Part shown: positions 5,069 to 61,333 of the stretch, in pieces
How positions within the stretch are numbered: position 1 is the first letter of the stretch
Layout of the letters: each line of letters begins with the position of its first letter
DNA from: a virus
Lineage: Duplodnaviria; Heunggongvirae; Uroviricota; Caudoviricetes
Strand: one strand, 5' to 3'
IMG/VR virus record: IMGVR_UViG_2700988907_000001
DNA length: 64,000 nt
Notes under the pieces: model-generated
What the model saw: only the letters and a program-made list of their open reading frames with translations
Database searches by the model: none
Told to the model about the DNA's origin: nothing
Position numbers and translations under genes: made by a program

Positions 5069-5117
5069 AGGGGTAAGGTATCTAACAAACAGATACTTTG
5101 CCCCTGTTTATTTTTTT
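5069..5117. terminator. Bidirectional rho-independent terminator
   Basis: Stem aggggtaaggtatc / gatactttgcccct, followed by a T8 run on the plus strand and preceded by an A-rich run that serves the minus strand. It sits between the convergent GT gene and the minus-strand ORF 5152-5373. Confidence 0.55.
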
Positions 5118-5151
5118 GTATAATTTAAGACAATAAAAGGTAGATTTTACG

Positions 5152-5373
5152 TTAACAATGTTCGGATTCTGGTTCTTCAACAGTAATGATTTCATAGTCT
5201 TTTACAACAAAAGACGAATTATCAGCGAATCTTTTAGCGTCTTGTTCGATATTAAACCATACAGCATCAATAATATTTGTTATCCAACGTTTGTTGCCGT
5301 TATCATCAACACCAAAGTATAAATATTCTCCATTGAGTTTTTTATAACCAATTACATAAAAATCAGTAAACAT
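5152..5373 (-). CDS. Antisense moron gene inside tail operon (73-aa soluble protein of unknown function)
   Basis: Good RBS (aaagaaagaggttttaATG). An extended -10 promoter (TGcTATAAT) lies about 25 nt upstream on the minus strand, and its own terminator (5069-5117) lies downstream. It is the only minus-strand gene in the 26-kb plus-strand late operon. Confidence 0.5.
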   Translation of the reverse strand: MFTDFYVIGYKKLNGEYLYFGVDDNGNKRWITNIIDAVWFNIEQDAKRFADNSSFVVKDYEIITVEEPESEHC

Positions 5374-5471
5374 TTTAAAACCTCTTTCTTTAATTTGTTA
5401 ACTTTATTATAGCATACATATTTATATTGTCAACACATTTATACATATTTTTTATAAGGAGTGAAAAACAC

Positions 5472-8400: not shown

Positions 8401-11400
8401 TCTCTCAAAATAGTGGACTTTCAGAGAAACAAGAACAAGCTATCTTACAGAGAACTGAAAAACGTTTCAGTAAAAGTAAACAAAAATTAACGGAAATCAA
8501 CAAAGAAATTCAAGAACTTGTTAATAAACAAGCAAGAGATGGCAAATTAAGCGGCAAGGAAATGAAAAGACTTAACCAACTATACGACGAACAACGTAAG
8601 TTAGCTGTCGGAACTCTTTCTTCAACTGACAAAGAACAGAAACGTATTCTTTCAAGAATGTCAGCGAACAGAGAAGCATATAATGTTAAAGAAGCTCAAT
8701 CTATAGTAAAAGAAGCTATTAAGGCAAGAGATAATGCTAAAAAAGAAAATAAAAAACGATACGACCAAGAAGTAGACCATATTAATAGTATGACAGACTT
8801 ATCTAAAACTGAAAAAGAAAAAATGTTAAAAGATGCTGATGATAGATATAGAAAAGCTAATAAAAAAGCTGACGATAACCATAAGAAAGTTTTAGACGGC
8901 GTTAAGAAAAGCAACGAAGATATAGAAACAGAAATGGATTTATCTAACGGAAAAGTATACAGTAACGCAGAGAAATGGTGGGAAAAAACTAAGAAAGGTT
9001 TTGGCAATTTCTTTGGCGATATTGGAAAATCCTTCTCTGACATGGGTAAATCATGGAAGAAAAATTGGGATGAAATGATAAGTGATATATCTAGCGTTGA
9101 TTGGTCTGGTATGTGGGACGGTATTAAAAATACCGGTTCCAATATCGGTGGTTGGTTCTCTGAAAAAGGACAAGAATTTGCTAAATCATTTAAAGGCGGT
9201 TGGGATGAAACTGTCACTAGATTAGGAGATTTATGGTCTAAATTGAAAGGGACTGGTTCAAATCTAGGAACTTGGTTTGCTGAAAAAGGTCGACAATGGT
9301 ATACTGACTTTAAAGATAGTTGGGAAACAACTAAGCAAACAGCCGGAGATTTATGGCAAGGTCTTAAAAATACTGGAACAGGTTTAGGTCAATGGTTTGG
9401 TAAAAAAGGCGCACAGTGGTATAATAGTTTCAAAGATAGTTGGGAAACAACTAAGCAGACCGCAGGAGACCTTTGGGCTGGTATTAAAAATACTGGCGCT
9501 GGACTAGGCGAATGGTTTGGTCAAAAAGGAGCACAGTGGTATAATAATTTTAAAGGTCAATGGGACTTAACTAAATCTACTGCTGGAGACTTGTGGAATG
9601 GAATCAAATCGACAAGTGCTAATTTAGGTCAATGGTTCGGTCAAAAAGGAGCTCAATTATGGAATAGTTTGAAATCCGGTTGGACTACTGCGGTAACAAC
9701 TACAGGGAATCTTTGGGGAACTATTACTGGAAAAATGGCTGCTGGTTGGGAATCAGTTAAAGGTTGGTTCGCAACAAAAGGCGCTCAAATGGTGTCTGCA
9801 ATTGTTCAAGGCTGGAACTCTACTGTCCATATAGTAGGAGCTGCATTTGGCACTCTTTGGGGTACAGTAAAACGAATTTGGTCTGGAATGACTGGAACGA
9901 TAAGATATTGGTCTGGTGTCATTTGGGCTAGAGTTAAAACTGTCTTTGGCTGGATTGGTAATAAGATTGGCGGTTCTCTAGGCGCAGCTTGGAAAAGAAC
10001 GCAAATTATTTGGAAAGGTATTAAAGGCACTTTCACTTATTGGACTGGCGTTATATGGACTAGAGTTAAGACCGTATTCAATTGGATTAAAGGCAAGATA
10101 GGAAGCGCTTTAATGGGTGCTTGGAAATCAGCTCAAAGAATCTGGAAGGGTATGAAAGGTACATTTACCTACTGGACTGGAGCTATTTGGAATCGTGTCA
10201 AATCAGTATTTGGTTGGATTAAAAATCGTATTGGGTCAACATTAAATGGTACTTGGAAAATTGTACAACGTGTCTGGAAAGGAATCAAAGGCACGATAAC
10301 TTATTGGACAGGTGCTATCTGGAACAGAATCAAATCTATATTTGGCGCAATTAAAAACAGAATAAGTTCTGTAATGAACGCTGTTTGGAAGATTATGCAA
10401 AGAATATGGAAGGGCATTAAAGGAACAGTTACTTATTGGACAGGTGCTATTCTAGGAAGAGTTAAATCTATTTTTGGAAGTATGAGAAATACAATTTCAA
10501 AAATAATGAATAGAATCAAATCTATTATGAGCAATATTTGGCGCTCAATTAAAAGAAATAGTATTGATTTAATGACTGGTATGTGGAACAGAATCAAGAG
10601 CGTCTTCAACAATATGGTAGACGGTGTTAAAAGTTTTGGTTCGTCTGTGAAAAAACATATCGGCGACATGGTTGGTGGCGTTAAGAAAGGGCTTAATGGA
10701 TTAATCAAAGGTGTAAACTGGGTTGGTGGAAAATTAGGTATAGATAAAAAAATACCTACATTATCTACTGGTACAGAATCTACACATACACAAAACTTTG
10801 TTAGAAATGGCGCTATTAGCACACCAACTTTAGCAACAGTTAATGACAAAGGACCTGGTAATGGTACTGGTAGAAATGGACATCAAGAATTAATTCAACG
10901 TAAAAACGGTTCATTATTTGCACCACAAGGAAAAGATGTAGTAGTTCCATTAAATAAAGGCGATAAAGTTATTAATGGTAAAACTACTCAAAAAATGCGT
11001 AAACAAGGTCTTATTCCTAAGTTTTCTCGTGGTACTGATGAGGGAGACCTTGTCAGAAGAAGCATGTTAAAAGATGCAAAAAAAGCAAAACGTAAACAAA
11101 AAAGAAAACACAATCATAATCATGGTATAGACGCCGGAGAAATGATGGGTCAAGGCGGCATGGGCGGTGCTGCAAAAGAAGCATGGAAATATGTAGAAGA
11201 CAAAACCAAAAATATTGGTAAGAAAACTGGTAAAACAGTTTCATCATTGAGTAACGGCGCACAAAAAATGCTTAACACTTCTAAAGAAGCACTAGGTGCT
11301 GCTGGAGATTGGGCTAAGAAAAAAGCCGGAGACTTAATGGATTATGTTGGACATCCAGGCAAACTTTTACAAAAAGTAATGAGTGAGTTTGGTGCTGACT

Positions 11401-12659
11401 TTAGTATGGTTAAAGGGGAAATCCCTTCTATGCTTTGGGACGCAATGTGGAAACGTCTAAAAGAAGCTGTAGAATCATTATTCAATGACTGGTTAGACGA
11501 CGCTATGGAAGGCGATGGCGACGGTAAATATATCAAATATCTTGATAATATCACTACGCCATATAGTCCTAATGGACCACCACCAGGCTATGCGTTTAAT
11601 TGGGCGCATCCTGGTATTGACTTACCTTATATATACGAAAAAGTTCAAACACCATTAGAAGGTAAAGTTCAAACTAAAGATACTGGTAATGTTGGATTCG
11701 GTCATCATGTCGTTGTTAAAGCGAAGCCTTATGACGCATATTTCGGTCATATGAGTAAATGGTCAGTTAAGAATGGACAACACGTAAAACCAGGAGATGT
11801 ACTTGGTATATCTGGTAACACAGGTTCAAGTACAGGACCACACTTACACTATGAAATGAACAAGCACGGAATGGGTTCTATGACTGGTCACTCTATCGAC
11901 CCTGTTAAGTGGTTAAAATCACATAACGGAAGTAAAGGTGGACGTGGCGGTGTAAACAAATCTGCTAGTGCTTGGGCTAGTGATATTAGAAGAGCCGCTA
12001 AACAAATGCACACAAGTGTTTCTTCTGGAGATGTTAGTAGAATTGTTAGTCTTATTCAGCACGAATCCGGCGGTAATGCAGGTGTTACACAGTCTAGTGG
12101 ATTAAGAGATATTAACGTATTGCAGGGCAATCCAGCGAAAGGTTTATTACAATTTATTCCACAAACATTTAGACATTATGCTGTTCGTGGTCATCGTAAT
12201 ATTATGAGTGGTTACGACCAATTACTTGCATTCTTTAACAATAAATACTGGAGAAGTCAGTTTAATCCAGGTGGCGGTTGGTCTCCTAGTGGACCAAGAA
12301 GATATGCAAATGGTGGTATGATTAAAAAGCATGGATTATATGAAGCAGGAGAAGGTAATAGACCAGAAATGGTATTACCATTAACTAAGAAAAACCGTTC
12401 TATGCAATTAATCGAACAAGCCAAATCATTCATGGGAATCAAAGATGAACCGGTTTCTGTTGATAGTGGCAATGGTGCTATAGATATTATAGCAAAACTA
12501 TTAGAACAAAACAATAGATTATTAGAAACTATTGTCAATGTAGTAGATAATAAAGAATTAGTTGTTGACGGACAGGCTATTACAAATAGTGTCAGTCAGA
12601 ACTTAGGTAGTAAATATAATCAGTCTAGCTACCATCGTGGCAAGAAACATAAAAGATAA
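5472..12659 (+). CDS. Tail tape measure protein with C-terminal M23 peptidase and lytic transglycosylase domains
   Basis: The RBS (taaggagtgaaaaacacATG) places the start at 5472, whereas the ORF-track start at 5427 is an upstream alternative start. About 2395 aa. The N-terminal half is long and coiled-coil, followed by Ala/Gly-rich transmembrane-like segments and W-rich tandem repeats. The M23 peptidase motif is HPGIDL...GNTGSSTGPHLHYE. The soluble lytic transglycosylase motif is LIQHESGGNAGV...GLLQF. Confidence 0.9.
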   Translation: MPANGKVVGKLVAQLDLQTAGFMKSTTGVNKAIRQIRSNLKTLDKFYKASGDEMNRLNSKYKQSKILMETYKEKLNGLKKELSSLKPNTQAFIKQQSQIRRTEADMKQLEAEMKNYRKQMLYVNSSIDQANAKYKSHKAVLEANRKIAVAQGNAEKKLRYDKKLMAAQIQRNNEVLKGERVILGRIRSTLGITSNEYKEQAAKVKQLKAENVGLTASMKSVNRQMLAYRASQKNMNAGLNRSLNFMKQNKAGLIDVRNSLMGLTAAATGVAYPIARAFGGAIKATVQWEDAQANVAKTTNASKEQMKDYSDSIRSMAKQMPESQAEIANTMAMAAQLGVKNLKGFTKVATQMSVATDMTAEDAATSMARFANATGKPNSDFKKLGSTVVQLGNNMATQESTLMNFAQRLAGTATVVGVSQKDIMALSAAMASVGINAESGGSAMSKVLTKMNNAVKDGGEKLQGFAKVAGMSGQEFAEVWKKDPYQAVQQFEKGLADQNKQGKNVKAMLKDLGITELRETDTVLRLANGHEQLDNARKNANKGYKEGNALSKEAETKYKTLGNQMKIFMNHVRDLGISLGSALAPALIGIMKVLTPLVDALAKAPTPIKAFVAALALIPVIAVPVLGVAAAITGAMGLVGQSMLVAEKAAMSSSRGLRFFVATQKLMFSPIKTTTQMLQNLAASFGRTGKASKVMAAETVASEKAVEASSVGMSRVARNSNTASKSMQGAGVAMASTGKKASFTSKLFGGLKKVIGPLIGMGGLLTAAFEALAAVIGALSAPILAIVAAVAAVGVAFVVAYKKVKWFRDGINGLVYVLKVFAGGIVSSTVNGIKSLGRWFGWLGGIVKDKATSAIKSWWKSLPQDSDIKQQVKAVQSVGNSFKNVMKTLGTATHKATDVSNVLGKGVSKGTKQALNNFVDYSEKSDKILAEIKNNHGRITTEEKNKLLQIQQDTTKDLMSEFEKRAKGQLDIERKVFSQNSGLSEKQEQAILQRTEKRFSKSKQKLTEINKEIQELVNKQARDGKLSGKEMKRLNQLYDEQRKLAVGTLSSTDKEQKRILSRMSANREAYNVKEAQSIVKEAIKARDNAKKENKKRYDQEVDHINSMTDLSKTEKEKMLKDADDRYRKANKKADDNHKKVLDGVKKSNEDIETEMDLSNGKVYSNAEKWWEKTKKGFGNFFGDIGKSFSDMGKSWKKNWDEMISDISSVDWSGMWDGIKNTGSNIGGWFSEKGQEFAKSFKGGWDETVTRLGDLWSKLKGTGSNLGTWFAEKGRQWYTDFKDSWETTKQTAGDLWQGLKNTGTGLGQWFGKKGAQWYNSFKDSWETTKQTAGDLWAGIKNTGAGLGEWFGQKGAQWYNNFKGQWDLTKSTAGDLWNGIKSTSANLGQWFGQKGAQLWNSLKSGWTTAVTTTGNLWGTITGKMAAGWESVKGWFATKGAQMVSAIVQGWNSTVHIVGAAFGTLWGTVKRIWSGMTGTIRYWSGVIWARVKTVFGWIGNKIGGSLGAAWKRTQIIWKGIKGTFTYWTGVIWTRVKTVFNWIKGKIGSALMGAWKSAQRIWKGMKGTFTYWTGAIWNRVKSVFGWIKNRIGSTLNGTWKIVQRVWKGIKGTITYWTGAIWNRIKSIFGAIKNRISSVMNAVWKIMQRIWKGIKGTVTYWTGAILGRVKSIFGSMRNTISKIMNRIKSIMSNIWRSIKRNSIDLMTGMWNRIKSVFNNMVDGVKSFGSSVKKHIGDMVGGVKKGLNGLIKGVNWVGGKLGIDKKIPTLSTGTESTHTQNFVRNGAISTPTLATVNDKGPGNGTGRNGHQELIQRKNGSLFAPQGKDVVVPLNKGDKVINGKTTQKMRKQGLIPKFSRGTDEGDLVRRSMLKDAKKAKRKQKRKHNHNHGIDAGEMMGQGGMGGAAKEAWKYVEDKTKNIGKKTGKTVSSLSNGAQKMLNTSKEALGAAGDWAKKKAGDLMDYVGHPGKLLQKVMSEFGADFSMVKGEIPSMLWDAMWKRLKEAVESLFNDWLDDAMEGDGDGKYIKYLDNITTPYSPNGPPPGYAFNWAHPGIDLPYIYEKVQTPLEGKVQTKDTGNVGFGHHVVVKAKPYDAYFGHMSKWSVKNGQHVKPGDVLGISGNTGSSTGPHLHYEMNKHGMGSMTGHSIDPVKWLKSHNGSKGGRGGVNKSASAWASDIRRAAKQMHTSVSSGDVSRIVSLIQHESGGNAGVTQSSGLRDINVLQGNPAKGLLQFIPQTFRHYAVRGHRNIMSGYDQLLAFFNNKYWRSQFNPGGGWSPSGPRRYANGGMIKKHGLYEAGEGNRPEMVLPLTKKNRSMQLIEQAKSFMGIKDEPVSVDSGNGAIDIIAKLLEQNNRLLETIVNVVDNKELVVDGQAITNSVSQNLGSKYNQSSYHRGKKHKR
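9100..9720 (+). repeat. Tandem ~93-nt (31-aa) W-rich repeats within tape measure gene
   Basis: At least 6 units of W.GIKNTG.NLG.WF..KGAQWYN.FKDSWETTKQTAGDLW. Adjacent nucleotide copies are near-identical, for example around 9357-9560. Confidence 0.8.
9880..10500 (+). repeat. Second tandem repeat family (~120 nt / 40 aa) within tape measure gene
   Basis: About 5 units of GTFTYWTGAIWNRVKSVFGWIKNRIGS.LNG.WK..QRIWKGIK. Confidence 0.8.
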
Positions 12660-12672
12660 GGAGATGTAATTA

Positions 12673-13509
12673 ATGGCAGGAGATAGATGGGTAAAGGTAA
12701 TTAAGCCTAATAAAAGTGATATTTTATTAACAGACATTCCAGGTCTCCATTTTCTGGAATGGAATATCCCATCTCCTGTTACTAATTCACAAGAACTAGA
12801 ATTAACAGGCATTGACGGTGTTCTTCCTAGTAGGAACACCTACGGTGCTTTTGATTTAGAATTGTTATTTTATTTTGCTGGAACAGATTCTAAAGATTTG
12901 AATTTATTCTCTCAAAGAATGAAAAGTCTAGTAAATGAGAGAGACCCTTTTTATATAGTTCATTCTGATATGCCTAGATTTAAATATGCTGTAAATTCAG
13001 CTGAAATAGAATATGATAAAATAACAGTAGCAGATATGAATTTCACAATTAAATTTCATTGCTATAAAGGATATGCAGAATCTTTGTACAGTACAAAACA
13101 TTATAGTCTATCAGATGATAATTGGCAATTCCAAAGTGGATTAGTAACTGATGAGGAGATTAAATATACTTTCCATTCAAATGGATTTAAAGTCTTTAAT
13201 GGTGGAGACGATGAAATTAACCCACTATATAGACATAATTTAAAAATATATATCAATGTAGATGCCCCAAACGGTTTTACTATTAGAAATAAAACAAACG
13301 GGACCTCTTTAACTTATAAAGGAAGTATTAAAAAGAATAGAACTTTTGTTATAAATGGAATTTATTCTATTATAGATAATAAAAGAGTTGGAAAAGATAC
13401 TGATTACGGTATTATTACTTTAGAACAAGGATATAATGATATTGAAATAGATGGAACTTCAATAGGTTCAGCAAAATGTAGATTTGATTTTAACTTTATT
13501 TATAGATAA
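12673..13509 (+). CDS. Distal tail protein (Dit, Sipho_tail family)
   Basis: 278 aa immediately after the tape measure gene. The sequence resembles siphovirus Dit, and the position is conserved. Confidence 0.7.
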   Translation: MAGDRWVKVIKPNKSDILLTDIPGLHFLEWNIPSPVTNSQELELTGIDGVLPSRNTYGAFDLELLFYFAGTDSKDLNLFSQRMKSLVNERDPFYIVHSDMPRFKYAVNSAEIEYDKITVADMNFTIKFHCYKGYAESLYSTKHYSLSDDNWQFQSGLVTDEEIKYTFHSNGFKVFNGGDDEINPLYRHNLKIYINVDAPNGFTIRNKTNGTSLTYKGSIKKNRTFVINGIYSIIDNKRVGKDTDYGIITLEQGYNDIEIDGTSIGSAKCRFDFNFIYR

Positions 13510-13522
13510 GGGAGGTAGAAGA

Positions 13523-15079
13523 ATGCACGAAGAAATTTTAATTATAGAAGATGAAAACAAAAACGTATCAGAACCGTTTATTGATTATTTATATGAATCT
13601 TTTAACTATGAACATGAAGAAAACGGTGCTCGTTCTATCTCTTTTACTGCCTATAAAACAGATGAAAACCAAGATGTTTATTATTATTTGGTTAATGATA
13701 ATTATATAATATATGCAGGACAATATTTTGTTATTAAAAATGTTGCTATAAAATCAGACAATACAAGTATACAAGCTGACATAACCGCTGAACACATAAT
13801 GTTTGAATTGCAAAATCATTATATAGAAAAGGAAAATGAAGAAGATGTAACAGTTGAAGTTAGTGATGATACTGAATCTGAAACTGAAAAAGTAATAACA
13901 ATGACAGCAAAAGAATATATAGAAAATGGTTTAAAAGATAATAAATTAGGATATACTTTTGAATTTATTGGTAAACATGATGTTAAGAAAAAAGTTGATT
14001 CTCTTGGAGAAAAGAATGGTATGGAATATTTAACTTCTGGAGCTGAAACATTTGGTTATATTTATTTTGCTGATAATAAAAATATAAAAATATATGACCA
14101 AAAATCATACGGAACAGCAAGTGACACTGTTATTAGATATAAGTATAATACGTCTAATATGGAGCTTACTATGAACTCTGCGGATGTTAAAACAGCAATT
14201 AAAGGATATGGTAAAAAAATATCTGATAAGGAATTAAAAAATTATAATGATAAAAAAACTAAAGACATGGAATTAAATGGTAATTTTATAAAAGATGGAA
14301 CATGGAGAACAGAAAATATAGGAGATAGTTATTCATACACACTGGATTGTAAGTGGGGAGATGAAACATTAATTTGGACACTTAAAAAAATGTCTAAAGG
14401 CGGAACACTAGATGTTTATCTTGATAACAAGAAAATAGGTAGTTATGATTGTTATAGTGAGAATGCTAAAACAGAAAAGAAAACACTTTCTAAAAACCTT
14501 TCAAAAGGTAAACATACTTTTAAAGCAGTATTTACTGGAAAGAAAAATGGTGTCGATTATAAAAAATCAAAACCTTGTATGTATATTGGAACTGAAAAAT
14601 CTGTTGTTCTTAAAACAGAAAGCAAAAGAACACCAGAGAAAACTTACCATGTTGTATCTGAATATCGTTCTCCTAACTTTAATCCTAAATTGCCAAAATA
14701 TGCACCTTCTGTTTATTCAGAAGATATAGTTGACAAAAAAGAGTTGGACAAAGAATTAAAAGAAACATTACAAGATAAACCGGTTATTGAATTATCTGTT
14801 ACTTATAATGGTCTTGAAAAATTTCAAGAAGACAGTATTATAAGATTTATACATGAGCCTACTGGAATTAGCGATGATTTAAGAGTTGTTAGTTTTAAAA
14901 AGTCTTTAGACTTAATGAACCAACCATTAGAGATTGGTTTTAGTAATGCTAAGACAGATATTATAAAAATACAACAACAAATTGATAATAATATTAAACT
15001 TGCAACAACACCATTAGGATATGGTAATTCAGCACCGATTTATTCTTCGGTTATAGGGAGTGTATTAGTAGATGAGTAG
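13523..15079 (+). CDS. Tail-associated lysin / tail endopeptidase (Tal-like)
   Basis: The RBS aagggaggtagaagaATG puts the start at 13523, not the ORF-track 13484. The N-terminal region is typical of the prophage-endopeptidase-tail family and follows Dit. Confidence 0.6.
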   Translation: MHEEILIIEDENKNVSEPFIDYLYESFNYEHEENGARSISFTAYKTDENQDVYYYLVNDNYIIYAGQYFVIKNVAIKSDNTSIQADITAEHIMFELQNHYIEKENEEDVTVEVSDDTESETEKVITMTAKEYIENGLKDNKLGYTFEFIGKHDVKKKVDSLGEKNGMEYLTSGAETFGYIYFADNKNIKIYDQKSYGTASDTVIRYKYNTSNMELTMNSADVKTAIKGYGKKISDKELKNYNDKKTKDMELNGNFIKDGTWRTENIGDSYSYTLDCKWGDETLIWTLKKMSKGGTLDVYLDNKKIGSYDCYSENAKTEKKTLSKNLSKGKHTFKAVFTGKKNGVDYKKSKPCMYIGTEKSVVLKTESKRTPEKTYHVVSEYRSPNFNPKLPKYAPSVYSEDIVDKKELDKELKETLQDKPVIELSVTYNGLEKFQEDSIIRFIHEPTGISDDLRVVSFKKSLDLMNQPLEIGFSNAKTDIIKIQQQIDNNIKLATTPLGYGNSAPIYSSVIGSVLVDE

Positions 15080-55159: not shown

Positions 55160-55597
55160 TTAGATATTATTCAAAATAATTGTGACAATATTCTTTAGTT
55201 GTTGTTCCTGTTCGCTGTCTAAATCATTAGGCAAAAAACGTTGTTCGTATTTAAAGGTCTCTAATACAGTATTATTAGTATCATTTAATATTTTACATAT
55301 ACTATCTACCGCTTCACAAAAGTGTGCAAATATTGAATTACCAGTACCGAACACTATCCATTTTTTATTATATTTAGTAGCATTATCTATAATAAATTGT
55401 TTGCATGATTTAGGGATTTTACCATCTCCCCAAGTGTTAGAACCTACGATAATTAAGTCATAATCTTTCACATCTAGGTCTATATGTTCATTTATATCAA
55501 ATCTATACTCATCTATATTGTTATTAAACTTCTTCAAGTAGTCCATGAACATATAAGTGTTTCCTGTTTTAGAGAAACCAACCATTAATATATTCAT
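55160..55597 (-). CDS. nrdI: NrdI flavodoxin-like protein (class Ib RNR accessory)
   Basis: MNILMVGFSKTGNTYMF...IIVGSNTWGDGKIP is flavodoxin-like. It lies immediately downstream of nrdF. Confidence 0.7.
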   Translation of the reverse strand: MNILMVGFSKTGNTYMFMDYLKKFNNNIDEYRFDINEHIDLDVKDYDLIIVGSNTWGDGKIPKSCKQFIIDNATKYNKKWIVFGTGNSIFAHFCEAVDSICKILNDTNNTVLETFKYEQRFLPNDLDSEQEQQLKNIVTIILNNI

Positions 55598-56637
55598 TAT
55601 AAATCATCCCAGCCATTTTCATCAGTTGTTAATTCATAATTCTTCTCACGTTTTTCAAAGAAATCTTCTTTCTTTCTGTTTCTGTTTTGAGGGTCAAAAG
55701 CATCAATCCAAGCCATAGGATTCTTTTTAGTATCAAATATCTTACTTAATCCTAAATTGTCTAGCATAATGTTTGCTCTATATTCTATAAACTTAATTAC
55801 TTCATACATATCAATGTCATCAGTATCTTTATACAAATCTTTACAATATTCTTGTTCATGTAAAACAATCTCTCTTGTGAAATCATATATCCACTGAGAT
55901 AATTCTTCTGTATTATACTCTGGATATTGTGTTAGTACATCTCTTACTATTGTTCCTTGTACCATAGAATGAATTTGTTCTTCTTTTTGAATATATTCAA
56001 TAATCTCTGCCATACCAAACATTTTACCATTTCTAGCAAAGTGATAGAAAGGAGTAAATCCGTTAGTAAAAGAAATCCCCTCTAATAAAGCATTTCCTAC
56101 TTGTGCCTTAACAAATGTTTCAATTGTTGGATTATCAATAAACCCATTTAACACTTCCATAATACGCTCATTACGTTTAATCATATAAGGGTCAACTTTA
56201 GGATAATTAAAAATCTCTCTTGCCTCTTCATCTGGAACAATAGATGATAACACATAAGAATAACTTTCATTATGGGTAATTTCATCATATGCAATCATAC
56301 TCATCAATGCTTTGATACTGGGGTCTTTAATATATTGTGATAAATGGTAGTCAAATACTTCTGCCACACTATCCAAACTTGCAAGAATACCAACACCACG
56401 TTTAAATACTTTCTTTTCTTTATCACTCATCTTGTTTTGCCAATCGGTATAGTCTTTAGCTATTGAGACCTCAGATGGAATCCAGAAGGCTTGTCTCAGC
56501 TGTTTCATGAAATCATAATAGAAATCATTGCTAATATCATTCCAGTTTAAGATTCCTGATTGTTCATCAAACATTCTTTTTTGTGAGTTTGGTCTGTCTA
56601 TGTTATAGATTCTTACCATTTTTTCTAATTTCTCCAT
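55597..56637 (-). CDS. nrdF: Ribonucleotide reductase class Ib beta subunit
   Basis: 346 aa ferritin-like R2. Iron-ligand segments are ..AYDEITHNESYSYV.. and ..EEQIHSM.., with a C-terminal ..WDDL. Confidence 0.8.
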   Translation of the reverse strand: MEKLEKMVRIYNIDRPNSQKRMFDEQSGILNWNDISNDFYYDFMKQLRQAFWIPSEVSIAKDYTDWQNKMSDKEKKVFKRGVGILASLDSVAEVFDYHLSQYIKDPSIKALMSMIAYDEITHNESYSYVLSSIVPDEEAREIFNYPKVDPYMIKRNERIMEVLNGFIDNPTIETFVKAQVGNALLEGISFTNGFTPFYHFARNGKMFGMAEIIEYIQKEEQIHSMVQGTIVRDVLTQYPEYNTEELSQWIYDFTREIVLHEQEYCKDLYKDTDDIDMYEVIKFIEYRANIMLDNLGLSKIFDTKKNPMAWIDAFDPQNRNRKKEDFFEKREKNYELTTDENGWDDL

Positions 56638-56705
56638 TGTTACATATCTCCTTTTTTATATTATAACAATAGGATAGCATACAAGCTACCCTATTATCAA
56701 CAACT

Positions 56706-57635
56706 CTATGCTGAGCAAGCTAGACAAGCATCTTCTTGTCTACTATCCCAAGAACGTACATAGTAAGTTGTTTTAATACCTTTTTTCCATACTGCCATGT
56801 GCATTGTCAATAAATGTTTTACCTTAATACCTGTTGGAATATATAAGTTAAATGATGATGATTGGTCTATCCATTGTTGTCTAGCTCCATTATGATTAAT
56901 AGCCCACATATGTGCTAATTGTTTCTCCCCATCGTAACTCATTTTCATTGTAGGTTTATAATAGAACCAAGTCTTAGATGAAAGGTTAGGCACAACAATA
57001 GGTAATAAAGCATTTCCTTTACCATCATTGTATATCACGTCAAAGATAGGGTCAATTCCTGGTGTACTTCCCATGAGTATTGACGTACCCCCTGTAGGCA
57101 TTGGACTTGCTAAGTATGAGTTTCTCATATATTTCATAGATAGCTCTTTTACTTCATCCCATTCTGGTAAAGTAGTTTCTTTTCTATCAATCCACTCACC
57201 AGTGTTCCATTGAGAGCCTTTATATACTTTATAAGAACCTTTCTCCTTACCAAGTAAAGCTGAATTTTTGATTCTATATAGCATAATTTTTTCTTCTAAT
57301 TTGTTAATAAAGTCAGTTGCTTTATCACTATCCCACATGATGCCTTCTTTTGCAAGTAAAGCAGCAATTCCTTGTTCTCCTGCACCAACAGCTCTATATT
57401 TATCATTGGTAATGCTAGCATCTGGAACAGTTAATCTATTTAGTGAGATAACATTATCCAACGCTCTCATTTGTACTGATATAACATCTTCTAATTCTTT
57501 TAAATTATGAATATCAATATTATTTAATACTAGTGCTGATAAATTACAAGTTACTAAATCTCCTGAATCATACTCCACAACAATATCTCCATCATCTGTT
57601 GAGATAGTTTCTGTGGTTCTTTGAGACGCTGTCAT
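56706..57635 (-). CDS. nrdE: Ribonucleotide reductase class Ib alpha subunit, exon 2 (5' boundary uncertain, 57614-57632)
   Basis: ...TETISTDDGDIVVEYDSGDLVTCNLSALVLNNID... aligns with NrdE 'SEILQV...DISCNLGSLNIAH'. The C-terminus ...YYVRSWDS...CLACSA carries the radical-transfer Tyr and Cys pair. The ORF-track Met at 57635 is probably intronic read-through. Confidence 0.7.
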   Translation of the reverse strand: MTASQRTTETISTDDGDIVVEYDSGDLVTCNLSALVLNNIDIHNLKELEDVISVQMRALDNVISLNRLTVPDASITNDKYRAVGAGEQGIAALLAKEGIMWDSDKATDFINKLEEKIMLYRIKNSALLGKEKGSYKVYKGSQWNTGEWIDRKETTLPEWDEVKELSMKYMRNSYLASPMPTGGTSILMGSTPGIDPIFDVIYNDGKGNALLPIVVPNLSSKTWFYYKPTMKMSYDGEKQLAHMWAINHNGARQQWIDQSSSFNLYIPTGIKVKHLLTMHMAVWKKGIKTTYYVRSWDSRQEDACLACSA

Positions 57636-58559
57636 GTTCTGGGCTATTTCGGTCCTTTGTGTTCAATAGAGGTCGTTAATCTCTACCAGTTCTCTGATGA
57701 ACTTCTACATGTCTCCATGCAGAGCAGACTATATCATTCTTCCACGTGGGAAGTCTGCCGTTTCGATTTAAACAAGTTTTATATGATTATTACTCAATAC
57801 TTGTACCACTTGGCTCTAACCTTGTCCCTTCACATATGTAAATAGGTTACGGATAGTCGTTAGGCATTTATTCATTAATATAAAACCAATTTTTAAATCT
57901 TTCAGTTTTAGAACTTAAACGATAACAAGCTGTGTTAACTCTTATATTATATGTCTTCGCAGCCTCTGTAACAGAAGAGAATACAACACCATTGATAGAT
58001 ACCTTTTTAGAATTTGCTTCTTTAACACTATCTAGCATTTTTTGAGATTTTTTACGACCATACATAGGATTACCTTTCCCAGAGAAAATTTTTGACTTTA
58101 GTTTTAAAGTCTCTTCTCTTCTTGGATTATGAATCATTCTATCCCCACCATCTTTTGAACCACCAATATTATAACCTATTCCTAGATTTTTGTCTATATA
58201 ATATTGTTCTTTTTCTATACTTTCTTCTAGTGAGTGAAACTCATGTATAATAACAAACTCAAAATTTTCTTCTCCGTATTTATTCCAGTCATCTTGTAAA
58301 TACATATTCCTGTGTTCGTTTTTTCTCAACATATTTTTATGTGCTCTAAATCGTTTCTCTATTTCTTGACTTCTTCCATAATAAACTTTTTTATTGATTT
58401 TACAAACTATTTTATATACATTATAAACCATAATAACATCTCCTTCATATTCTTGAAGGCTTTATATTAATGAATTTTAGCACGGTATTATCTTTAAAAG
58501 ACTTTCACCGTTTAGGCAGATTTTTCGATAACGATTGCTCGTTAAAGGTGCTAATGTTA
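57636..58559 (-). mobile_element. Group I intron in nrdE carrying a GIY-YIG homing endonuclease gene
   Basis: Exon 1 ends ...GIIYSSNLC at the active-site Cys, with TGT at 58560-58562, and the intron begins TAACAT. The IGS candidate agcac pairs with exon gtgt through a G.U pair. The intron RNA contains a P-like aaaaatctgcctaaacgg, the R element cctaacgactatcc (plus 57845-57860) and the S element gaatgatatagtctgc (plus 57728-57745). The HEG ORF sits in a peripheral loop. Confidence 0.65.
57868..58431 (-). CDS. GIY-YIG homing endonuclease (intron-encoded)
   Basis: The N-terminal motif KVYYGRS...R...H is GIY-YIG. The C-terminal INGVVFSSVTEAAKTYNIRVNTA is a NUMOD-like DNA-binding region. RBS aaggagatgttattATG. 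Confidence 0.75.
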   Translation of the reverse strand: MVYNVYKIVCKINKKVYYGRSQEIEKRFRAHKNMLRKNEHRNMYLQDDWNKYGEENFEFVIIHEFHSLEESIEKEQYYIDKNLGIGYNIGGSKDGGDRMIHNPRREETLKLKSKIFSGKGNPMYGRKKSQKMLDSVKEANSKKVSINGVVFSSVTEAAKTYNIRVNTACYRLSSKTERFKNWFYINE

Positions 58560-60011
58560 ACACAAGTTACTACTATAAATAATTCCTTCGTGACTATTAG
58601 GATTCTCTCTGTTCACTGTATCACGATAAAACATAAATAATTTACCTTTTTCTAATTGTTGCTTCATAATCTTTTTCATGATTTCAATAGCTTCTACACG
58701 TTTCTTTTTAAGATTAGGATTATCCACACATTCATAGTATCTATATGTCCAAGCATGGTCTTGCTTGTTAGGTTTTTCTTTTTCTCCTAATTTTTTCTTA
58801 TCATAGTAATCTTCTAAACTATAGCCCATTTCTTTTCTAATCTCATGAGGGTCAAATAAATACCAGTCCCCACGTTTATCAACTTGTCTCATAAATTCAT
58901 CGGGAATACATAGCGCAGGGAATATATTATATGCTCTCATGTTCTGGTCTCCAACTGGTGATTGTATATCTAAAAACATTTCTAAATCTAAATGCCACGC
59001 ATCTAAATAGACGGCGCCAGCCCCACTACGAGTTCCGAGCTGATTCACTGACTCTAATGTTTTATCTAATATTTTAATCCAGGGAATAATACCACTAGAC
59101 GCTCCTACATTGCCTCTAATATCAGAACCATTGGCTCTAATTTTCCCTATATATGTCCCCAAGCCTGCACCATTCTTACTAAACTCTGCCACTTTTGAAA
59201 TACTATCAAAAATACTAGTTAAAGAGTCATCAAATGTTACGACATGACATGAACTTAAAGAACCATATGGCGTGCCACTATTCATAAATGTTGGTGTAGC
59301 ACTTGATATTTGTAACTTAGAAAATCTATCATATAATCTTAATGCTTCTTTTAATCTATTTTGTGGTTCCTCTGCTGATGAAATGTGTAAAGCCATTGTC
59401 ATAAATCTTTCTTGAGGCAATTCTAAAATAGATTTATCATAGTCTGTTACTAAGTATCTATCTTTTAATTGGTTTACTCCCGCATAATCAAATAGCATAT
59501 CGTTATCTGGTTTAATATACTCTCCTGCTTCCTTGATTTCTTCTTGAGAATACTTTTCAAATAATTCTTTTGTGTATAAACCTTTCTCAGCCATCATAAG
59601 TATAAAGCCCAAGTAGTCTCCATACTTATCATTAGAATCAAAAGAGCGGTTCTTACTTGCTCTTTTATATAGCTCATTCAATAATACATATCTAGCAAAT
59701 TTGTTCCAATTAATACTATTAAGGGATTCTTGCGTAATTCTATCTTTATCATCTTTAATATCATCTACTAATGATAAAGAGTCTTGGATTAAAATTCTAT
59801 TAATAGATTTAGCTTCAATTTCATCTTTATATTGAATCTTACCAATTACTTTATCAATGAAGAAGTCTTTAGATTCTTTAGGTACTTTTAAACCATCTAA
59901 TCCCTTATTAATAAAGTTGATGAGTCTTTGAGGCTCAAACTCTTTTATTCTTTCATTGACTTTTCCTTTATCTTTAATTACTATCGTCATATAAAATTTC
60001 CTCCTAATCAT
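58560..60011 (-). CDS. nrdE: Ribonucleotide reductase class Ib alpha subunit, exon 1
   Basis: 484 aa ending SSNLC, where the thiyl-radical Cys sits in the N-x-C-x-E active-site motif. The cone-less NrdE-type N-terminus is followed by a stop codon inside the intron. Confidence 0.8.
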
Positions 60012-60071
60012 ATCTCAATATATATTATATCATAAAAGAACAGTTTTGTCAACTGTTCTTGTAAAAAATTA

Positions 60072-60305
60072 TTATTTTTTCCCACTTCTAAACGTAATTA
60101 AATCTTCATATAAAACAACTTTAACAAGGGCTGGAACCCCATCTTTTGTTTCTTCTATAATTTCTACATTGTCATATATCTTACATAACCTAGTTATATG
60201 TGGAATATTGGAACTATATATAATCCACCTATTTAATTCTTTATCATAAGAGCATGTTGTTTCTGCTTCGTGCTTAGAATATCTACTATCTACTATTTTA
60301 GCCAT
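60072..60305 (-). CDS. Hypothetical protein
   Basis: 77 aa upstream of nrdE in the same operon. Confidence 0.3.
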   Translation of the reverse strand: MAKIVDSRYSKHEAETTCSYDKELNRWIIYSSNIPHITRLCKIYDNVEIIEETKDGVPALVKVVLYEDLITFRSGKK

Positions 60306-60458
60306 TTGTCAATCTCTTTATTTACTTCGATTTTAGCAAAACCTTTAAGATTTTTATGTTTGGAAATAACCTTATCTTTTAATGCTTCAGTAGAAACTGC
60401 TCCCATATAGTCCCCGTCTTTATTAAAAATCGCATAAACTGTGTATTGTGGTAATTTA

Positions 60459-60947
60459 TTATCCATGCTTTAACCCCTCATTTCTTATTAATGAATCAAT
60501 TTGTGTAACTTTGTCTCTAATATCATCAAATCTTATATTATTTTCAATATCGTTATTACCATATATTTTTTTATATAATTCTATTTTATAAATTAATGAA
60601 TCTAACTCATTATTTGCCATACCTATATCTTTATTTATCTCGTTTACTAAATGTCGTTTCTTTCTCTTTATTTCAGTGTTGTTTGCTAGTTCTTGTAGTT
60701 TAGCTTCTGGGTAGTAGCTCAATTCTATAAAGTTTTCAATTACCTTTATTTTATTAAGAGAGCTAGTTTTAATTACTTCATCATTATAAACATAGTTGAC
60801 AACTAATAAACCAGCTGTTCCTTGTGTTTTTTTAACATCTATATAATTCCCTCCACCTAAATCTACACCTACAAATTCATTTATTTTATGTTCTTCTAAC
60901 TCATAATAGCTTTCTTCAAATTTCTCTCTTAATCCATCGTTTACCAT
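60459..60947 (-). CDS. Hypothetical protein
   Basis: 162 aa. Confidence 0.3.
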   Translation of the reverse strand: MVNDGLREKFEESYYELEEHKINEFVGVDLGGGNYIDVKKTQGTAGLLVVNYVYNDEVIKTSSLNKIKVIENFIELSYYPEAKLQELANNTEIKRKKRHLVNEINKDIGMANNELDSLIYKIELYKKIYGNNDIENNIRFDDIRDKVTQIDSLIRNEGLKHG

Positions 60948-60967
60948 AAATAACCTCTCCTTTTATA

Positions 60968-61333
60968 TTATTCATTATCCCAACGAACAGACACCATAAC
61001 ACCATCTTGTGAATCTTCATATACTGTATGGAAACCTTCATTGTCTAATTCTTTAAGAACTGCTAATATTTCTTGTTTATTATACCCTTCTATAGGTTCT
61101 TTAAACTTAAATATTTTATAATACAATATACAACTAAACCTACCTTTTTCACTGGCTGTTTTAATATCTGATTTAGCTTGTTTTAAAAATTCATTAATAT
61201 TTTTCTTTTTAGGTTTAGCTGTATTAAAGTCATTTCTTGTTCCTTGAAACCAACGTTTTGCTTTAATAGTATTATCATAGGTTCGTTGTGCTAAATTTTT
61301 CTTTGCCATTACACTAATTCGCCATCTTTCCAA
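60968..61333 (-). CDS. Hypothetical protein
   Basis: 121 aa. Confidence 0.3.
   Translation of the reverse strand: MERWRISVMAKKNLAQRTYDNTIKAKRWFQGTRNDFNTAKPKKKNINEFLKQAKSDIKTASEKGRFSCILYYKIFKFKEPIEGYNKQEILAVLKELDNEGFHTVYEDSQDGVMVSVRWDNE

What the first reader, a model, noticed from the sequence alone, without database searches (positions are those of the whole stretch)
56706..60011. nrdE split by a group I intron carrying a GIY-YIG homing endonuclease; the 3' splice site is non-obvious
Exon 1 stops exactly after the radical Cys (…SSNLC*). A 0.9-kb insertion carries a complete GIY-YIG endonuclease gene with its own RBS, plus group I P/R/S elements. NrdE homology resumes at ...TETISTDDG...

The catalytic Glu must lie two residues after the Cys (N-x-C-x-E). 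That requires joining TGT (58560-58562) to ACA GAA (57612-57607).

However, the nucleotide preceding ACAGAA on the minus strand is C, not the expected omega-G. Every G-terminated alternative either alters the C-x-E spacing or inserts about 6 residues (C-TASQRT-TE).

This points to a non-canonical 3' splice site, an unusual insertion tolerated in the active site, or a split-protein RNR like the mobE-split nrdA of Aeromonas phage Aeh1.
Basis: partly seen in the sequence, partly recalled or inferred. Interest (0 to 1): 0.75.

Follow-up and report, generated by a model that had tools for sequence, protein, structure and literature searches.

The report
Ordinary group I intron in RNR gene

Summary
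The window is Staphylococcus phage vB_SepS_SEP9 (100% identity). The split RNR alpha gene, the 906-nt insertion and the GIY-YIG gene are all real.

The supposed puzzle comes from one wrong premise: that the catalytic Glu is the E of "TTE". An uninterrupted allele in the related phage S-CoN_Ph10 reads ...SSNLC-QEISQNMSATQKTTETIS.... The C-x-E glutamate is therefore encoded 13 codons upstream, by GAA 57650-57648.

- **Junction:** exon 2 starts at A57653 (ACC GAA ATA GCC...) and is preceded by G57654, a canonical omega-G. Joining TGT (58562-58560) to ACC gives a 792-aa protein that aligns with the 792-aa intronless homologue at 87% identity with no gaps.
- **Homologous introns:** five copies at the same site all end ...AGG | x-Glu-Ile.
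- **Fold:** a covariation-supported IA2-type structure (P1-P9.2, U·G at the 5' site, P9.0 next to omega-G) backs the boundaries. One homologue passes Rfam's Intron_gpI threshold.

This is a known kind of element. The only new point is a correction: the deposited SEP9 protein (AHG24001.1/W5RV23) uses a junction 21 nt too far downstream and lacks the catalytic Glu. Splicing itself is inferred, not shown.

The parts
60024..60052 (-). sigma-70-type promoter of the RNR operon (TTGACA-17-TATAAT with TG)
   Evidence: 12/12 consensus match. Annotated as a promoter in the SEP9 record.
58560..59990 (-). Exon 1 of the RNR alpha-subunit gene (477 codons, ends ...SSNLC). The radical Cys codon TGT is at 58562-58560 and the last base U58560 is the 5' splice site.
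   Evidence: ORF list and sequence. 83% nt / 87% aa identity to intronless S-CoN_Ph10. dN/dS 0.07.
57654..58559 (-). Group I intron, 906 nt, IA2-like. It begins with an in-frame TAA and ends with omega-G at G57654.
   Evidence: Boundaries come from the gap-free alignment of the spliced product to the intronless allele. Homologous introns at the same site occur in 5 other phages. Covariation supports the fold. Rfam RF00028 matches.
58548..58563 (-). P1 hairpin GUGU|UA-ACAU-UAGCAC. It contains the 5' splice site, with U58560 in a U·G wobble with the internal guide.
   Evidence: The U·G pair and three flanking pairs are invariant in 6/6 homologues. The pair just inside the intron shows a compensatory U-A/A-U change (helix 1).
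58529..58544 (-). P2 hairpin with GCAA loop
   Evidence: 6 pairs, 4 with compensatory double changes, 100% paired (helix 2).
58515..58520 (-). P3, 5' strand (UCUGCC). It pairs with 57759-57754.
   Evidence: 2 pairs with double changes, 97% paired (helix 3). Matches P3 of the Rfam model in the Romulus homologue.
58482..58511 (-). P4-P5-P4' domain
   Evidence: P4 has 3 of 5 pairs with double changes and is 100% paired. P5 is 94% paired (helices 4-5).
58458..58475 (-). P6, 5' strand (18 nt). It pairs with 57887-57870, and the loop of P6 holds the endonuclease gene.
   Evidence: An 18-bp complementarity in SEP9. Equivalent 15-17-bp stems with different sequences occur in Twillingate, PT94, F1 and PT1-4.
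58440..58459 (-). Hairpin CCUUCA-AGAAUA-UGAAGG covering the endonuclease Shine-Dalgarno sequence (GAAGGAG)
   Evidence: Sequence. Reported by the stem-loop scan. Its function (translational down-regulation as for I-TevI) is inferred only.
57868..58431 (-). GIY-YIG homing endonuclease gene (187 aa). Its last six sense codons and the first two bases of its stop codon form the 3' strand of P6 (57887-57870).
   Evidence: Pfam GIY-YIG 47.5 bits and I-TevI_DNA-bd 40.4 bits. TIGR01453 96.5 bits against a cut-off of 56. Deposited as AHG24002.1 'group I intron endonuclease'.
57853..57858 (-). P7, 5' strand GACUAU (within the R element AACGACUAUCC). It pairs with 57732-57727.
   Evidence: 6 pairs invariant in 6/6 sequences (helix 6).
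57826..57846 (-). P7.1 hairpin
   Evidence: 8 pairs, 2 with double changes (helix 7).
57772..57804 (-). P7.2 hairpin
   Evidence: Outer stem has 4 of 6 pairs with double changes. Inner stem has 1 of 3 (helices 8-9).
57754..57759 (-). P3, 3' strand (GGCAGA)
   Evidence: helix 3.
57739..57753 (-). P8 hairpin
   Evidence: 5 pairs, 93% paired (helix 10). Aligned to P8 of RF00028.
57727..57732 (-). P7, 3' strand AUAGUC (S element AAUGAUAUAGUC)
   Evidence: The highest-confidence stretch of the RF00028 alignment. Invariant.
57664..57724 (-). P9.0 5' strand (CU 57724-57723), P9 with GAGA loop (57722-57705), P9.1 (57702-57689) and P9.2 (57688-57664)
   Evidence: P9 and P9.2 each have 2 pairs with double changes (helices 12-13). 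A P9.1 hairpin can form in every homologue but was not scored, because the alignment is not in register there.
57654..57656 (-). AG of the P9.0 3' strand (57656-57655), followed by omega-G (G57654), the 3' splice site
   Evidence: AGG is invariant in 6/6 introns and always followed by x-Glu-Ile codons. P9.0 CU/AG is paired in 6/6 (helix 11).
56706..57653 (-). Exon 2 (315 codons plus stop). It begins ACC GAA ATA GCC CAG AAC ATG = T-E-I-A-Q-N-M, and the catalytic Glu codon GAA is at 57650-57648.
   Evidence: Colinear with the intronless allele. In SEP9/PT94/F1 the first 7 codons differ only at synonymous third positions. Aligns to NLCHEI/NLCTEI of solved RNRs. dN/dS 0.08.
55597..56637 (-). RNR beta-subunit gene
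   Evidence: Pfam Ribonuc_red_sm 220.8 bits.
55160..55597 (-). Flavodoxin gene downstream of the RNR genes
   Evidence: Pfam Flavodoxin_1 36.3 bits. NrdI models score below cut-off.

Best explanation
The class I ribonucleotide reductase alpha-subunit gene of Staphylococcus phage SEP9 is interrupted, directly after the codon of the thiyl-radical cysteine, by a 906-nt mobile group I intron of the phage IA2 type (58559-57654, minus strand).

How it most likely works:
- **Folding.** The pre-mRNA folds into the ribozyme core (P1-P9.2 with P7.1/P7.2).
- **First step.** Exogenous GTP attacks after U58560, which sits in a U·G wobble in P1.
- **Second step.** The freed exon 1 attacks after the canonical omega-G, G57654, which is positioned by the two-base-pair P9.0.
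- **Product.** The ligated mRNA reads ...AAC TTG TGT|ACC GAA ATA... = N-L-C-T-E-I. This restores the N-x-C-x-E active-site motif and a 792-aa protein.
- **Translation stop.** The in-frame TAA at the first intron codon stops ribosomes that reach the unspliced 5' splice site.
- **Mobility.** The loop of P6 carries a GIY-YIG (I-TevI-like) homing endonuclease gene. Its product presumably cuts intronless RNR alleles of co-infecting phages near the NLC-xEI codons and so spreads the intron.

Shown here: the sequence features, the colinearity with intronless alleles, the covariation-supported fold, and homology to a bona fide Rfam group I intron. Inferred: splicing itself, the endonuclease activity and its target.
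For: - **Identity of the window.** It is phage SEP9 at 100% identity, and the record already annotates a two-piece CDS plus an intron endonuclease.
- **Intronless allele.** In S-CoN_Ph10 the gene reads SSNLC-QEISQNMSATQKTTETIS. The TGT|ACC junction gives 792 aa against 792 aa, 87% identity and 0 gaps.
- **Solved structures.** C-T-E-I aligns gap-free with NLCHEI (7agj) and NLCTEI (human R1).
- **Homologous introns.** Copies at the same site in Twillingate, PT94, F1, PT1-4 and Romulus all end AGG followed by A[CG]N GA[AG] AT[ACT].
- **Codon-type variation.** In the three closest intron-bearing relatives, the seven codons TEIAQNM differ only synonymously (GAA/GAG, ATA/ATC, GCC/GCA/GCT).
- **Independent check of the homologous junction.** The junction I predicted for Twillingate equals its deposited protein, and phage 110 carries a 99.7% identical uninterrupted allele.
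- **Structure.** Of 71 proposed pairs, 96% of cells are paired and 22 pairs carry compensatory double changes. Slid controls give 0-3 double changes and 32-50% paired.
- **Rfam.** RF00028 scores 63.7 bits (gathering score 50, E = 1.3e-15) on the Romulus copy. On the SEP9 3' half alone it scores 26.4 bits, E = 4.7e-5.
- **Wider homology.** The 3' half is homologous to introns in 491 phage records, including a Twort intron in the tail tube gene.
- **Selection.** Both exons are under strong purifying selection (dN/dS 0.07 and 0.08).
- **Endonuclease.** Its domains score above the curated cut-offs.
Against: - There are no RNA or protein data for SEP9, so splicing is inferred.
- Rfam's Intron_gpI does not reach its gathering score on SEP9 itself. 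It found nothing in a 5-kb scan and 26.4 bits on the 3' half. The likely reason is that the 566-nt P6 insertion splits the core.
- P10 is essentially absent. In SEP9, exon 2 base +1 (A) faces an A in the guide sequence. Choice of the 3' site therefore rests on P9.0 and omega-G alone.
- The public annotation uses a different junction (after G57633).
- With only six homologues, the covariation counts are partly phylogenetically dependent.
Confidence: 0.93

Rival explanations
1. One reading: the intron uses a non-canonical 3' splice site after C57615, joining TGT to ACA GAA (57614-57609), so that the E of 'TTE' serves as the catalytic glutamate.
For: It gives a formal C-x-E spacing, and the frame is kept.
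Against: - It would delete 13 residues (TEIAQNMTASQRT) that are present and colinear in the uninterrupted homologue and in 7agj.
- It requires a C at the omega position, while a canonical, invariant AGG lies 39 nt upstream.
- The 'deleted' codons evolve like coding sequence.
Confidence: 0.01
2. Junction as deposited in GenBank/RefSeq/UniProt (AHG24001.1, YP_009007748.1, W5RV23): the 3' splice site is after G57633, the G of the ATG. This gives ...SSNLC|TASQRTTE... and a 785-aa protein.
For: The site is G-terminated and in frame, and this exact 785-aa sequence is the public record.
Against: - It removes TEIAQNM, including the catalytic Glu of N-x-C-x-E, and leaves a 7-residue gap against the intronless allele.
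- Those 21 nt show only synonymous differences among SEP9, PT94 and F1.
- In the more distant hosts (PT1-4, Romulus, Twillingate) there is no equivalent ATG-G at that distance, but the AGG|xEI junction is conserved.
- The P9.0 pairing sits next to G57654, not G57633.
Confidence: 0.03
3. Genes-in-pieces RNR as in Aeromonas phage Aeh1. There is no splicing. Two polypeptides (exon 1 product ending ...NLC, and a product starting at Met 57635) assemble into an active alpha subunit.
For: Exon 1 ends with a stop codon, and exon 2 contains an in-frame ATG. A functional split nrdA is described for Aeh1 (PMC3653736).
Against: - The only in-frame start (ATG 57635) lies downstream of the Glu codon, and no good Shine-Dalgarno sequence precedes it.
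- Between the in-frame stop at 57665-57663 and the Glu codon there is no ATG, GTG or TTG. A split product would therefore lack the catalytic Glu.
- A complete ribozyme, conserved with compensatory changes, separates the pieces. The Aeh1 case has no intron.
Confidence: 0.02
4. The intron no longer splices and the RNR gene is a decaying pseudogene.
For: No experimental evidence of splicing. SEP9's P5 is 9 nt shorter than in its relatives, and P10 is weak.
Against: - Both exons are intact, with dN/dS of about 0.07-0.08 against an intronless relative.
- All core helices, the U·G pair, P7 and omega-G are intact.
- The endonuclease ORF is intact.
Confidence: 0.02

Closest known systems
The same intron at the same NLC|xEI site in other Staphylococcus phages: Sepunavirus Twillingate/phiIPLA-C1C (GIY-YIG ORF in P6), Sextaecvirus PT94, PT1-1, PT1-4 and vB-SscS-F1, Silviavirus Romulus/Remus (ORF in P9.1)
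   Same: - Same insertion point (after the TGT of N-L-C).
- Same core, with 87% mean column identity once the ORF loops are removed.
- Same AGG 3' end and the same helices.
- For Twillingate, 'introns with precise boundaries' were published (PMC6597688). Its deposited product uses the junction homologous to the one proposed here.
   Different: - The host RNR genes are only distantly related. PT1-4 and Twillingate have class Ib-like SEILQ/TEIAQLQ contexts.
- The endonuclease ORFs differ in sequence, and in Romulus in position.
- SEP9 has a shorter P5 and a different P1 loop.
- The SEP9, PT94, F1 and PT1-4 records do not annotate the correct junction.
Phage Twort group I introns (orf142/tail-tube introns, whose ribozyme has a crystal structure; nrdE-I1 and nrdE-I2 of Landthaler et al. 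2002)
   Same: - Phage IA2-type self-splicing introns in conserved genes of staphylococcal phages.
- The SEP9 3' half is 72.9% identical over 217 nt to a Twort intron in the tail tube gene.
- Twort nrdE introns also sit next to functionally important residues (PMC3653736).
   Different: - Twort's two nrdE introns lie at other positions (Twillingate residues 241/242 and 583/584).
- Twort's NLC site is uninterrupted and reads TGC, with C instead of U at position -1.
- Twort nrdE-I2 carries an HNH endonuclease, not a GIY-YIG one.
T4 td intron with I-TevI
   Same: - A group IA2 phage intron in a nucleotide-metabolism gene, with the GIY-YIG endonuclease ORF looped out of P6.
- The SEP9 enzyme has both the GIY-YIG catalytic domain and the I-TevI-type DNA-binding domain.
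- The ribosome-binding site lies in a hairpin, as is known for I-TevI (this last point rests on my own knowledge of the I-TevI literature, not on a test here).
   Different: A different host gene and insertion site. The only nucleotide similarity seen to T-even-type phage records is 23-38% of the 217-nt query at about 80-84% identity; what those stretches are was not checked. The endonuclease's activity and cleavage site are untested.
Aeromonas phage Aeh1 split nrdA (mobE insertion)
   Same: An RNR alpha gene interrupted near the active site by a homing-endonuclease gene (PMC3653736).
   Different: Aeh1 has no intron, and two polypeptides assemble. Here a complete ribozyme is present, and the downstream piece cannot be translated on its own with the catalytic Glu.

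Membership tests
Group I intron (Rfam RF00028) | 5' exon ends in U, which forms a U·G wobble with the internal guide sequence in P1 | tested here: met
   U58560·G in GUGU|UA...UAGCAC. The U·G pair is present in 6/6 homologues (pair 8-17).
Group I intron (Rfam RF00028) | Intron ends in a conserved G (omega-G) immediately before exon 2 | tested here: met
   G57654. AGG is invariant in 6/6 and always followed by x-Glu-Ile codons. The junction is confirmed by a gap-free alignment to the intronless allele.
Group I intron (Rfam RF00028) | Conserved catalytic core P3-P8, including the P3/P7 pseudoknot and the R and S sequence elements | tested here: met
   P3, P4, P5, P7 and P8 are 93-100% paired, with compensatory changes in P3, P4 and P5. 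P7 GACUAU/AUAGUC is invariant. The S element aligns with high posterior probability.
Group I intron (Rfam RF00028) | Score at or above Rfam's gathering threshold (50 bits) | tested here: inconclusive
   SEP9 itself gave no hit in a 5-kb scan and 26.4 bits, E = 4.7e-5, on the 3' half alone. The 566-nt ORF insert in P6 splits the model. The homologous Romulus copy, with a contiguous core, scores 63.7 bits, E = 1.3e-15.
Group I intron (Rfam RF00028) | Self-splicing with a guanosine cofactor | not testable with these tools
   Needs in vitro transcription and GTP labelling, or RT-PCR from infected cells.
Subgroup IA2 (phage type) | Extra helices P7.1 and P7.2 between P7 and P3', and P9.1/P9.2 extensions | tested here: met
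   P7.1 has 8 pairs (2 with double changes). P7.2 has 9 pairs (5 with double changes). P9.2 has 8 pairs (2 with double changes). 72.9% identity to a Twort tail-tube-gene intron. The subgroup assignment rests on my own knowledge of IA2 architecture.
GIY-YIG homing endonuclease (I-TevI-like) | N-terminal GIY-YIG catalytic domain plus C-terminal I-TevI-type DNA-binding domain, above curated cut-offs | tested here: met
   PF01541 47.5 bits (cut-off 22.6). PF20987 40.4 bits (cut-off 27). TIGR01453 96.5 bits (cut-off 56).
GIY-YIG homing endonuclease (I-TevI-like) | Site-specific cleavage of the intronless allele | not testable with these tools
   Needs a cleavage assay on, for example, the S-CoN_Ph10 allele.
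Class I ribonucleotide reductase alpha subunit (NrdA/NrdE) | RNR all-alpha and barrel domains, with the active-site N-x-C-x-E motif intact | tested here: met
   PF00317 and PF02867 (449 bits) match the spliced product. TIGR02506 scores 496 bits (cut-off 341). NLCTEI aligns to NLCHEI/NLCTEI of solved structures.
   TIGR04170 314.5 bits (cut-off 750). The beta subunit scores 164.8 on TIGR04171 (cut-off 355). The flavodoxin scores 24.3 on TIGR00333 NrdI (cut-off 74.65). The best matches are generic 'subunit alpha' models.
Genes-in-pieces RNR (Aeh1 nrdA-a/nrdA-b type) | No ribozyme between the pieces, and a downstream piece with its own translation start that includes its share of the active site | tested here: not met
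   A complete ribozyme is present. There is no ATG, GTG or TTG between the in-frame stop (57665-57663) and the Glu codon (57650-57648). The first start, ATG 57635, lies after the Glu.

The most novel reading that the evidence does not exclude
The most novel reading that the evidence does not exclude is that P10 is essentially absent and a second in-frame G-terminated site lies 21 nt downstream (G57633, the junction in the public record). The ribozyme might then use both 3' sites. A fraction of the alpha subunits would lack the catalytic Glu, and these could poison or regulate RNR complexes. Alternatively, the intron might not splice at all, so that the enzyme works as two pieces.
Probability: 0.03. 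Interest if true: 0.45.

Novelty: already known. Interest (0 to 1): 0.08.

Why it matters
It matters little for biology. Group I introns with homing endonucleases in phage RNR genes, inserted next to catalytic residues, have been described since the 1980s-2000s (T4 nrdB/nrdD, SPbeta bnrdE, Twort nrdE). This very intron is annotated, with what I infer to be the correct junction, in Twillingate-type phages.

The practical value is a curation point. The deposited SEP9 protein (AHG24001.1 / YP_009007748.1 / UniProt W5RV23) was built with a 3' junction 21 nt too far downstream. It therefore lacks seven residues, including the essential active-site glutamate. Several related records (PT94, PT1-4, F1) list the exons as separate genes and call spurious small ORFs inside the ribozyme.

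The case also shows a general trap. An exon does not have to begin at the first ATG of its ORF, and active-site residues should be assigned by alignment to an uninterrupted homologue, not by motif spacing alone.

Tried and rejected
1. An Rfam scan of 56000-61000 at E <= 1 found no group I intron, because the ORF in P6 splits the model. Restricting the scan to the 3' half and scanning a homologue with a contiguous core resolved this.
2. My first guess was that omega-G was G57644, because nucleotide homology with the Twillingate intron runs to 57643. That would force an 11-residue insertion between Cys and Glu. I rejected it once the intronless allele showed that the last roughly 10 'homologous' bases are conserved exon 2 (ACC GAA ATA GC).
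3. I examined every in-frame G-terminated junction (starts at 57653, 57632 and 57626, among others), as well as frame-shifted 5' sites (TGTT|, TG|). Only TGT|ACC keeps the Cys, the frame and the Glu.
4. An exact look-up of the 792-aa product found nothing. The deposited protein turned out to be the 785-aa variant.
5. An apparent three-way covariation between the base after P7 3' (57725), P3 and P3' was rejected, because Romulus breaks the pattern.
6. P10: I found no convincing pairing between exon 2 and the guide sequence in SEP9.
7. Landthaler et al. 2002 (PMC113830) is not held in the library. I determined the Twort intron positions directly by tblastn instead.
8. Structure prediction and the large protein searches were not needed and were not run.

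Full report
**What is there.** The window is Staphylococcus phage vB_SepS_SEP9 (KF929199 / NC_023582), matched at 100% identity over the whole finding. That record already annotates a two-piece 'ribonucleotide reductase alpha subunit' CDS and a 'group I intron endonuclease'. On the minus strand I confirm three ORFs:
- an ORF ending ...IIYSSNLC-TAA, with TGT at 58562-58560;
- a 187-aa ORF (58431-57868) preceded by GAAGGAG;
- an ORF 57635-56706 that continues the RNR homology.

The middle ORF matches Pfam GIY-YIG and the I-TevI DNA-binding domain, and NCBIfam TIGR01453 'group I intron endonuclease', all above cut-off. Two coordinates need correcting. ACA GAA of 'TTE' is at 57614-57609, not 57612-57607. 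The true start codon is ATG 59990, behind AGGAGG, not 60011.

**Where the puzzle comes from.** The closest uninterrupted allele is in the sextaecvirus S-CoN_Ph10 (L005 3516-5894, 792 aa). It reads ...IYSSNLC-QEISQNMSATQKTTETISTDEG.... The C-x-E glutamate therefore lies 13 codons upstream of 'TTE'.

In SEP9 the exon 2 frame is open back to 57662. It reads ...ACC GAA ATA GCC CAG AAC ATG ACA... = T-E-I-A-Q-N-M-T..., and the base before ACC is G57654. Joining TGT (58560) to ACC (57653) gives a 792-aa product. This product aligns with the 792-aa Ph10 protein at 87% identity with no gap at all. It contains N-L-C-T-E-I, which aligns gap-free with NLCHEI of PDB 7agj and NLCTEI of human R1. The intron is thus 58559-57654 (906 nt). 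It is bounded by U at position -1 and a canonical omega-G.

**Comparative support for the boundary.** The same intron sits at the same place in five other staphylococcal phages, whose RNR genes range from closely to distantly related:
- Twillingate: ...CACAGG|ACA GAA ATA GCA
- PT94: ...ATATAGG|ACC GAA ATC GCA
- vB-SscS-F1: ...ATATAGG|ACC GAG ATA GCT
- PT1-4: ...ATATAGG|AGT GAA ATA CTT
- Romulus: ...ATGTAGG|AGT GAA ATT ATG

In all six phages the intron ends AGG and is followed by x-Glu-Ile. Among SEP9, PT94 and F1 the seven codons TEIAQNM differ only at synonymous third positions. That is the signature of translated sequence, not of ribozyme.

For Twillingate, the junction predicted this way gives exactly the deposited 705-aa protein AXF38570.1. 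Phage 110 carries a 99.7% identical uninterrupted allele. The Twillingate authors reported 'introns with precise boundaries' in the RNR gene (PMC6597688).

**The ribozyme.** I removed the ORF-bearing loops and aligned the six cores with 8 nt of exon 1 and 9 nt of exon 2 (A1; 87% mean column identity). I then wrote a structure by hand with these elements:
- P1: GUGU|UA / UAGCAC, with U58560·G
- P2 with a GCAA loop
- P3, P4, P5
- P7: GACUAU / AUAGUC, the R and S elements
- P7.1, P7.2, P8
- P9.0: CU / AG directly before omega-G
- P9 with a GAGA loop
- P9.2

On this structure, 96% of 426 cells are standard pairs and 22 of 71 pairs carry compensatory double changes. When the 3' partners are slid by 1-3 columns, only 32-50% of cells pair and 0-3 pairs show double changes. 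None of 500 shuffles reached the observed covariation score. With only six related sequences these numbers are not independent events, but the contrast with the slid controls is large.

P6 is an 18-bp stem. Its 3' strand is the end of the endonuclease ORF, stop codon included (58475-58458 with 57887-57870). Equivalent stems of different sequence exist in the other copies.

Rfam's Intron_gpI model misses SEP9 in a 5-kb scan, because the 566-nt P6 insert splits the core. It does find the 3' half (26.4 bits, E = 4.7e-5). It passes its gathering score on the Romulus copy, where the ORF sits in P9.1 and the core is contiguous (63.7 bits against 50, E = 1.3e-15). The 3' half has nucleotide matches in 491 phage records. 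They include an intron in the Twort tail tube gene (72.9% identity over 217 nt) and a Vibrio phage stretch annotated 'Intron_gpI'.

**Mechanism (inferred).** This is standard group I splicing. GTP attacks after U58560. Exon 1 then attacks after G57654, which is held at the G-binding site of P7 with help from P9.0. P10 is essentially absent in SEP9. The intron opens with an in-frame TAA, a common phage arrangement that stops ribosomes at the unspliced 5' splice site (review PMC3984707).

The GIY-YIG enzyme presumably cleaves intronless alleles near the NLC-xEI codons and drives homing. Consistent with repeated homing or co-conversion, identity between SEP9 and the intronless Ph10 falls to 57% in the first 30 nt of exon 2, against 82% overall. 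Both exons are under strong purifying selection (dN/dS 0.07 and 0.08). This argues that the interrupted gene is functional.

**Rivals.**
It would delete 13 conserved residues and ignores an invariant AGG.
- **Deposited junction (after G57633).** Exact look-up shows the public protein AHG24001.1 / YP_009007748.1 / W5RV23 is the 785-aa ...NLC|TASQRT... version. It omits TEIAQNM, including the catalytic Glu, so I regard it as an annotation error of 21 nt.
- **Aeh1-type split protein.** This is unlikely. A complete ribozyme is present, and no ATG, GTG or TTG lies between the in-frame stop at 57665-57663 and the Glu codon. A separately translated C-terminal piece would therefore lack the Glu.
- **Decay.** The dN/dS values and the intact core contradict it.

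None of these can be formally excluded without RNA or protein data. Together I give them about 7%.

**Comparison with what is known.** Group I introns with homing endonucleases in phage RNR genes are textbook cases: T4 nrdB and nrdD, SPbeta bnrdE and Twort nrdE (PMC3653736; PMC3984707). The Twort nrdE introns are at other positions, and Twort's NLC codon is TGC and uninterrupted. The closest relatives are therefore the copies in Sepunavirus, Silviavirus and other Sextaecvirus genomes listed above.

The gene is better called a class I RNR alpha subunit than 'nrdE'. It passes only the generic TIGR02506 model and fails the class Ib model. The beta subunit and the flavodoxin fail the NrdF and NrdI models.

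**Verdict.** The 3' splice site is canonical, at G57654 | ACC GAA. The feature is an already known kind of element in an already annotated genome. The only new output is the correction of the deposited exon junction. Interest is low.

Noticed in passing
window 57633-57653 (minus strand): The public SEP9 RNR alpha protein (AHG24001.1 / YP_009007748.1 / UniRef100_W5RV23, 785 aa) was built with the 3' junction after G57633. It lacks TEIAQNM, including the active-site Glu. The 792-aa product proposed here is not in the protein collection.
   Followed up: yes
window 58440-58459 and 57870-57887 (minus strand): The endonuclease Shine-Dalgarno sequence (GAAGGAG) lies inside the hairpin CCUUCA...UGAAGG, and that hairpin shares two bases with the 5' strand of P6. 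The last six sense codons plus the first two bases of the stop codon of the ORF form the 3' strand of P6. This suggests that endonuclease translation and ribozyme folding are coupled or competing, as in T4 I-TevI.
   Followed up: partly
L008 (Romulus) 2392-3231 compared with window 57654-58559: The same ribozyme at the same RNR site carries its endonuclease ORF in P9.1 in Romulus but in P6 in SEP9, PT94, PT1-4, F1 and Twillingate. The P6 ORFs are of two lengths (187 aa in SEP9, PT94 and PT1-4; 189-193 aa in F1 and Twillingate), whose relatedness was not tested. The position difference suggests independent endonuclease-gene invasions of one intron lineage.
   Followed up: partly
window 57624-57653 and 58560-58619: Nucleotide identity between SEP9 and the intronless S-CoN_Ph10 allele drops to 57% in the first 30 nt of exon 2 and to 70-73% in the last 60 nt of exon 1, against 82% overall. 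Intron-bearing alleles of different phages share ACC/ACA GAA ATA GC. This looks like co-conversion or target-site divergence around the homing site.
   Followed up: partly
whole window (1-64000): The window has 30.2% G+C. A comparative paper states that vB_SepS_SEP9 has an unusually high G+C of 45.8% (PMC6507118). The two do not agree, at least for these 64 kb of the 92-kb genome.
   Followed up: no
window 55160-60011: The RNR genes are not class Ib by NCBIfam cut-offs. The alpha subunit fails TIGR04170, the beta subunit fails TIGR04171, and the downstream flavodoxin scores below the NrdI models. Its best matches are generic flavodoxin models, also below their curated cut-offs (Pfam Flavodoxin_1 does pass). 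Public records label these genes variously as class Ia, class Ib, nrdA or nrdE.
   Followed up: partly
L004 (PT94) 2660-2831; L007 (PT1-4) 3808-4003; L006 (F1) 3516-6829: Related phage records annotate the two exons as separate genes or 'hypothetical proteins'. They also call small antisense ORFs inside the ribozyme core.
   Followed up: no
L009 (Twort) 11004-14634: Twort nrdE is interrupted at two other positions (Twillingate residues 241/242 and 583/584). Its NLC codon is TGC, with C instead of the U needed at position -1, and that site is uninterrupted.
   Followed up: yes
one search hits H124, H127, H129, H130: tblastn matches of the Twillingate RNR alpha protein break exactly at residue 383/384 (the NLC position) in a Staphylococcus SPbeta-like phage, Lactococcus phage P1048, Corynebacterium phage Zion and Enterococcus phage LG1. 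This hints that the position is a recurrent insertion hot spot (intron or intein) across Firmicutes and Actinobacteria phages.
   Followed up: no
window 60024-60052 and 59990-60011 (minus strand): A perfect extended -10 sigma-70 promoter (TTGACA-17-TG-TATAAT) precedes the RNR gene. The ORF's first ATG (60011) lies within the ribosome-binding region, and the real start is ATG 59990.
   Followed up: yes
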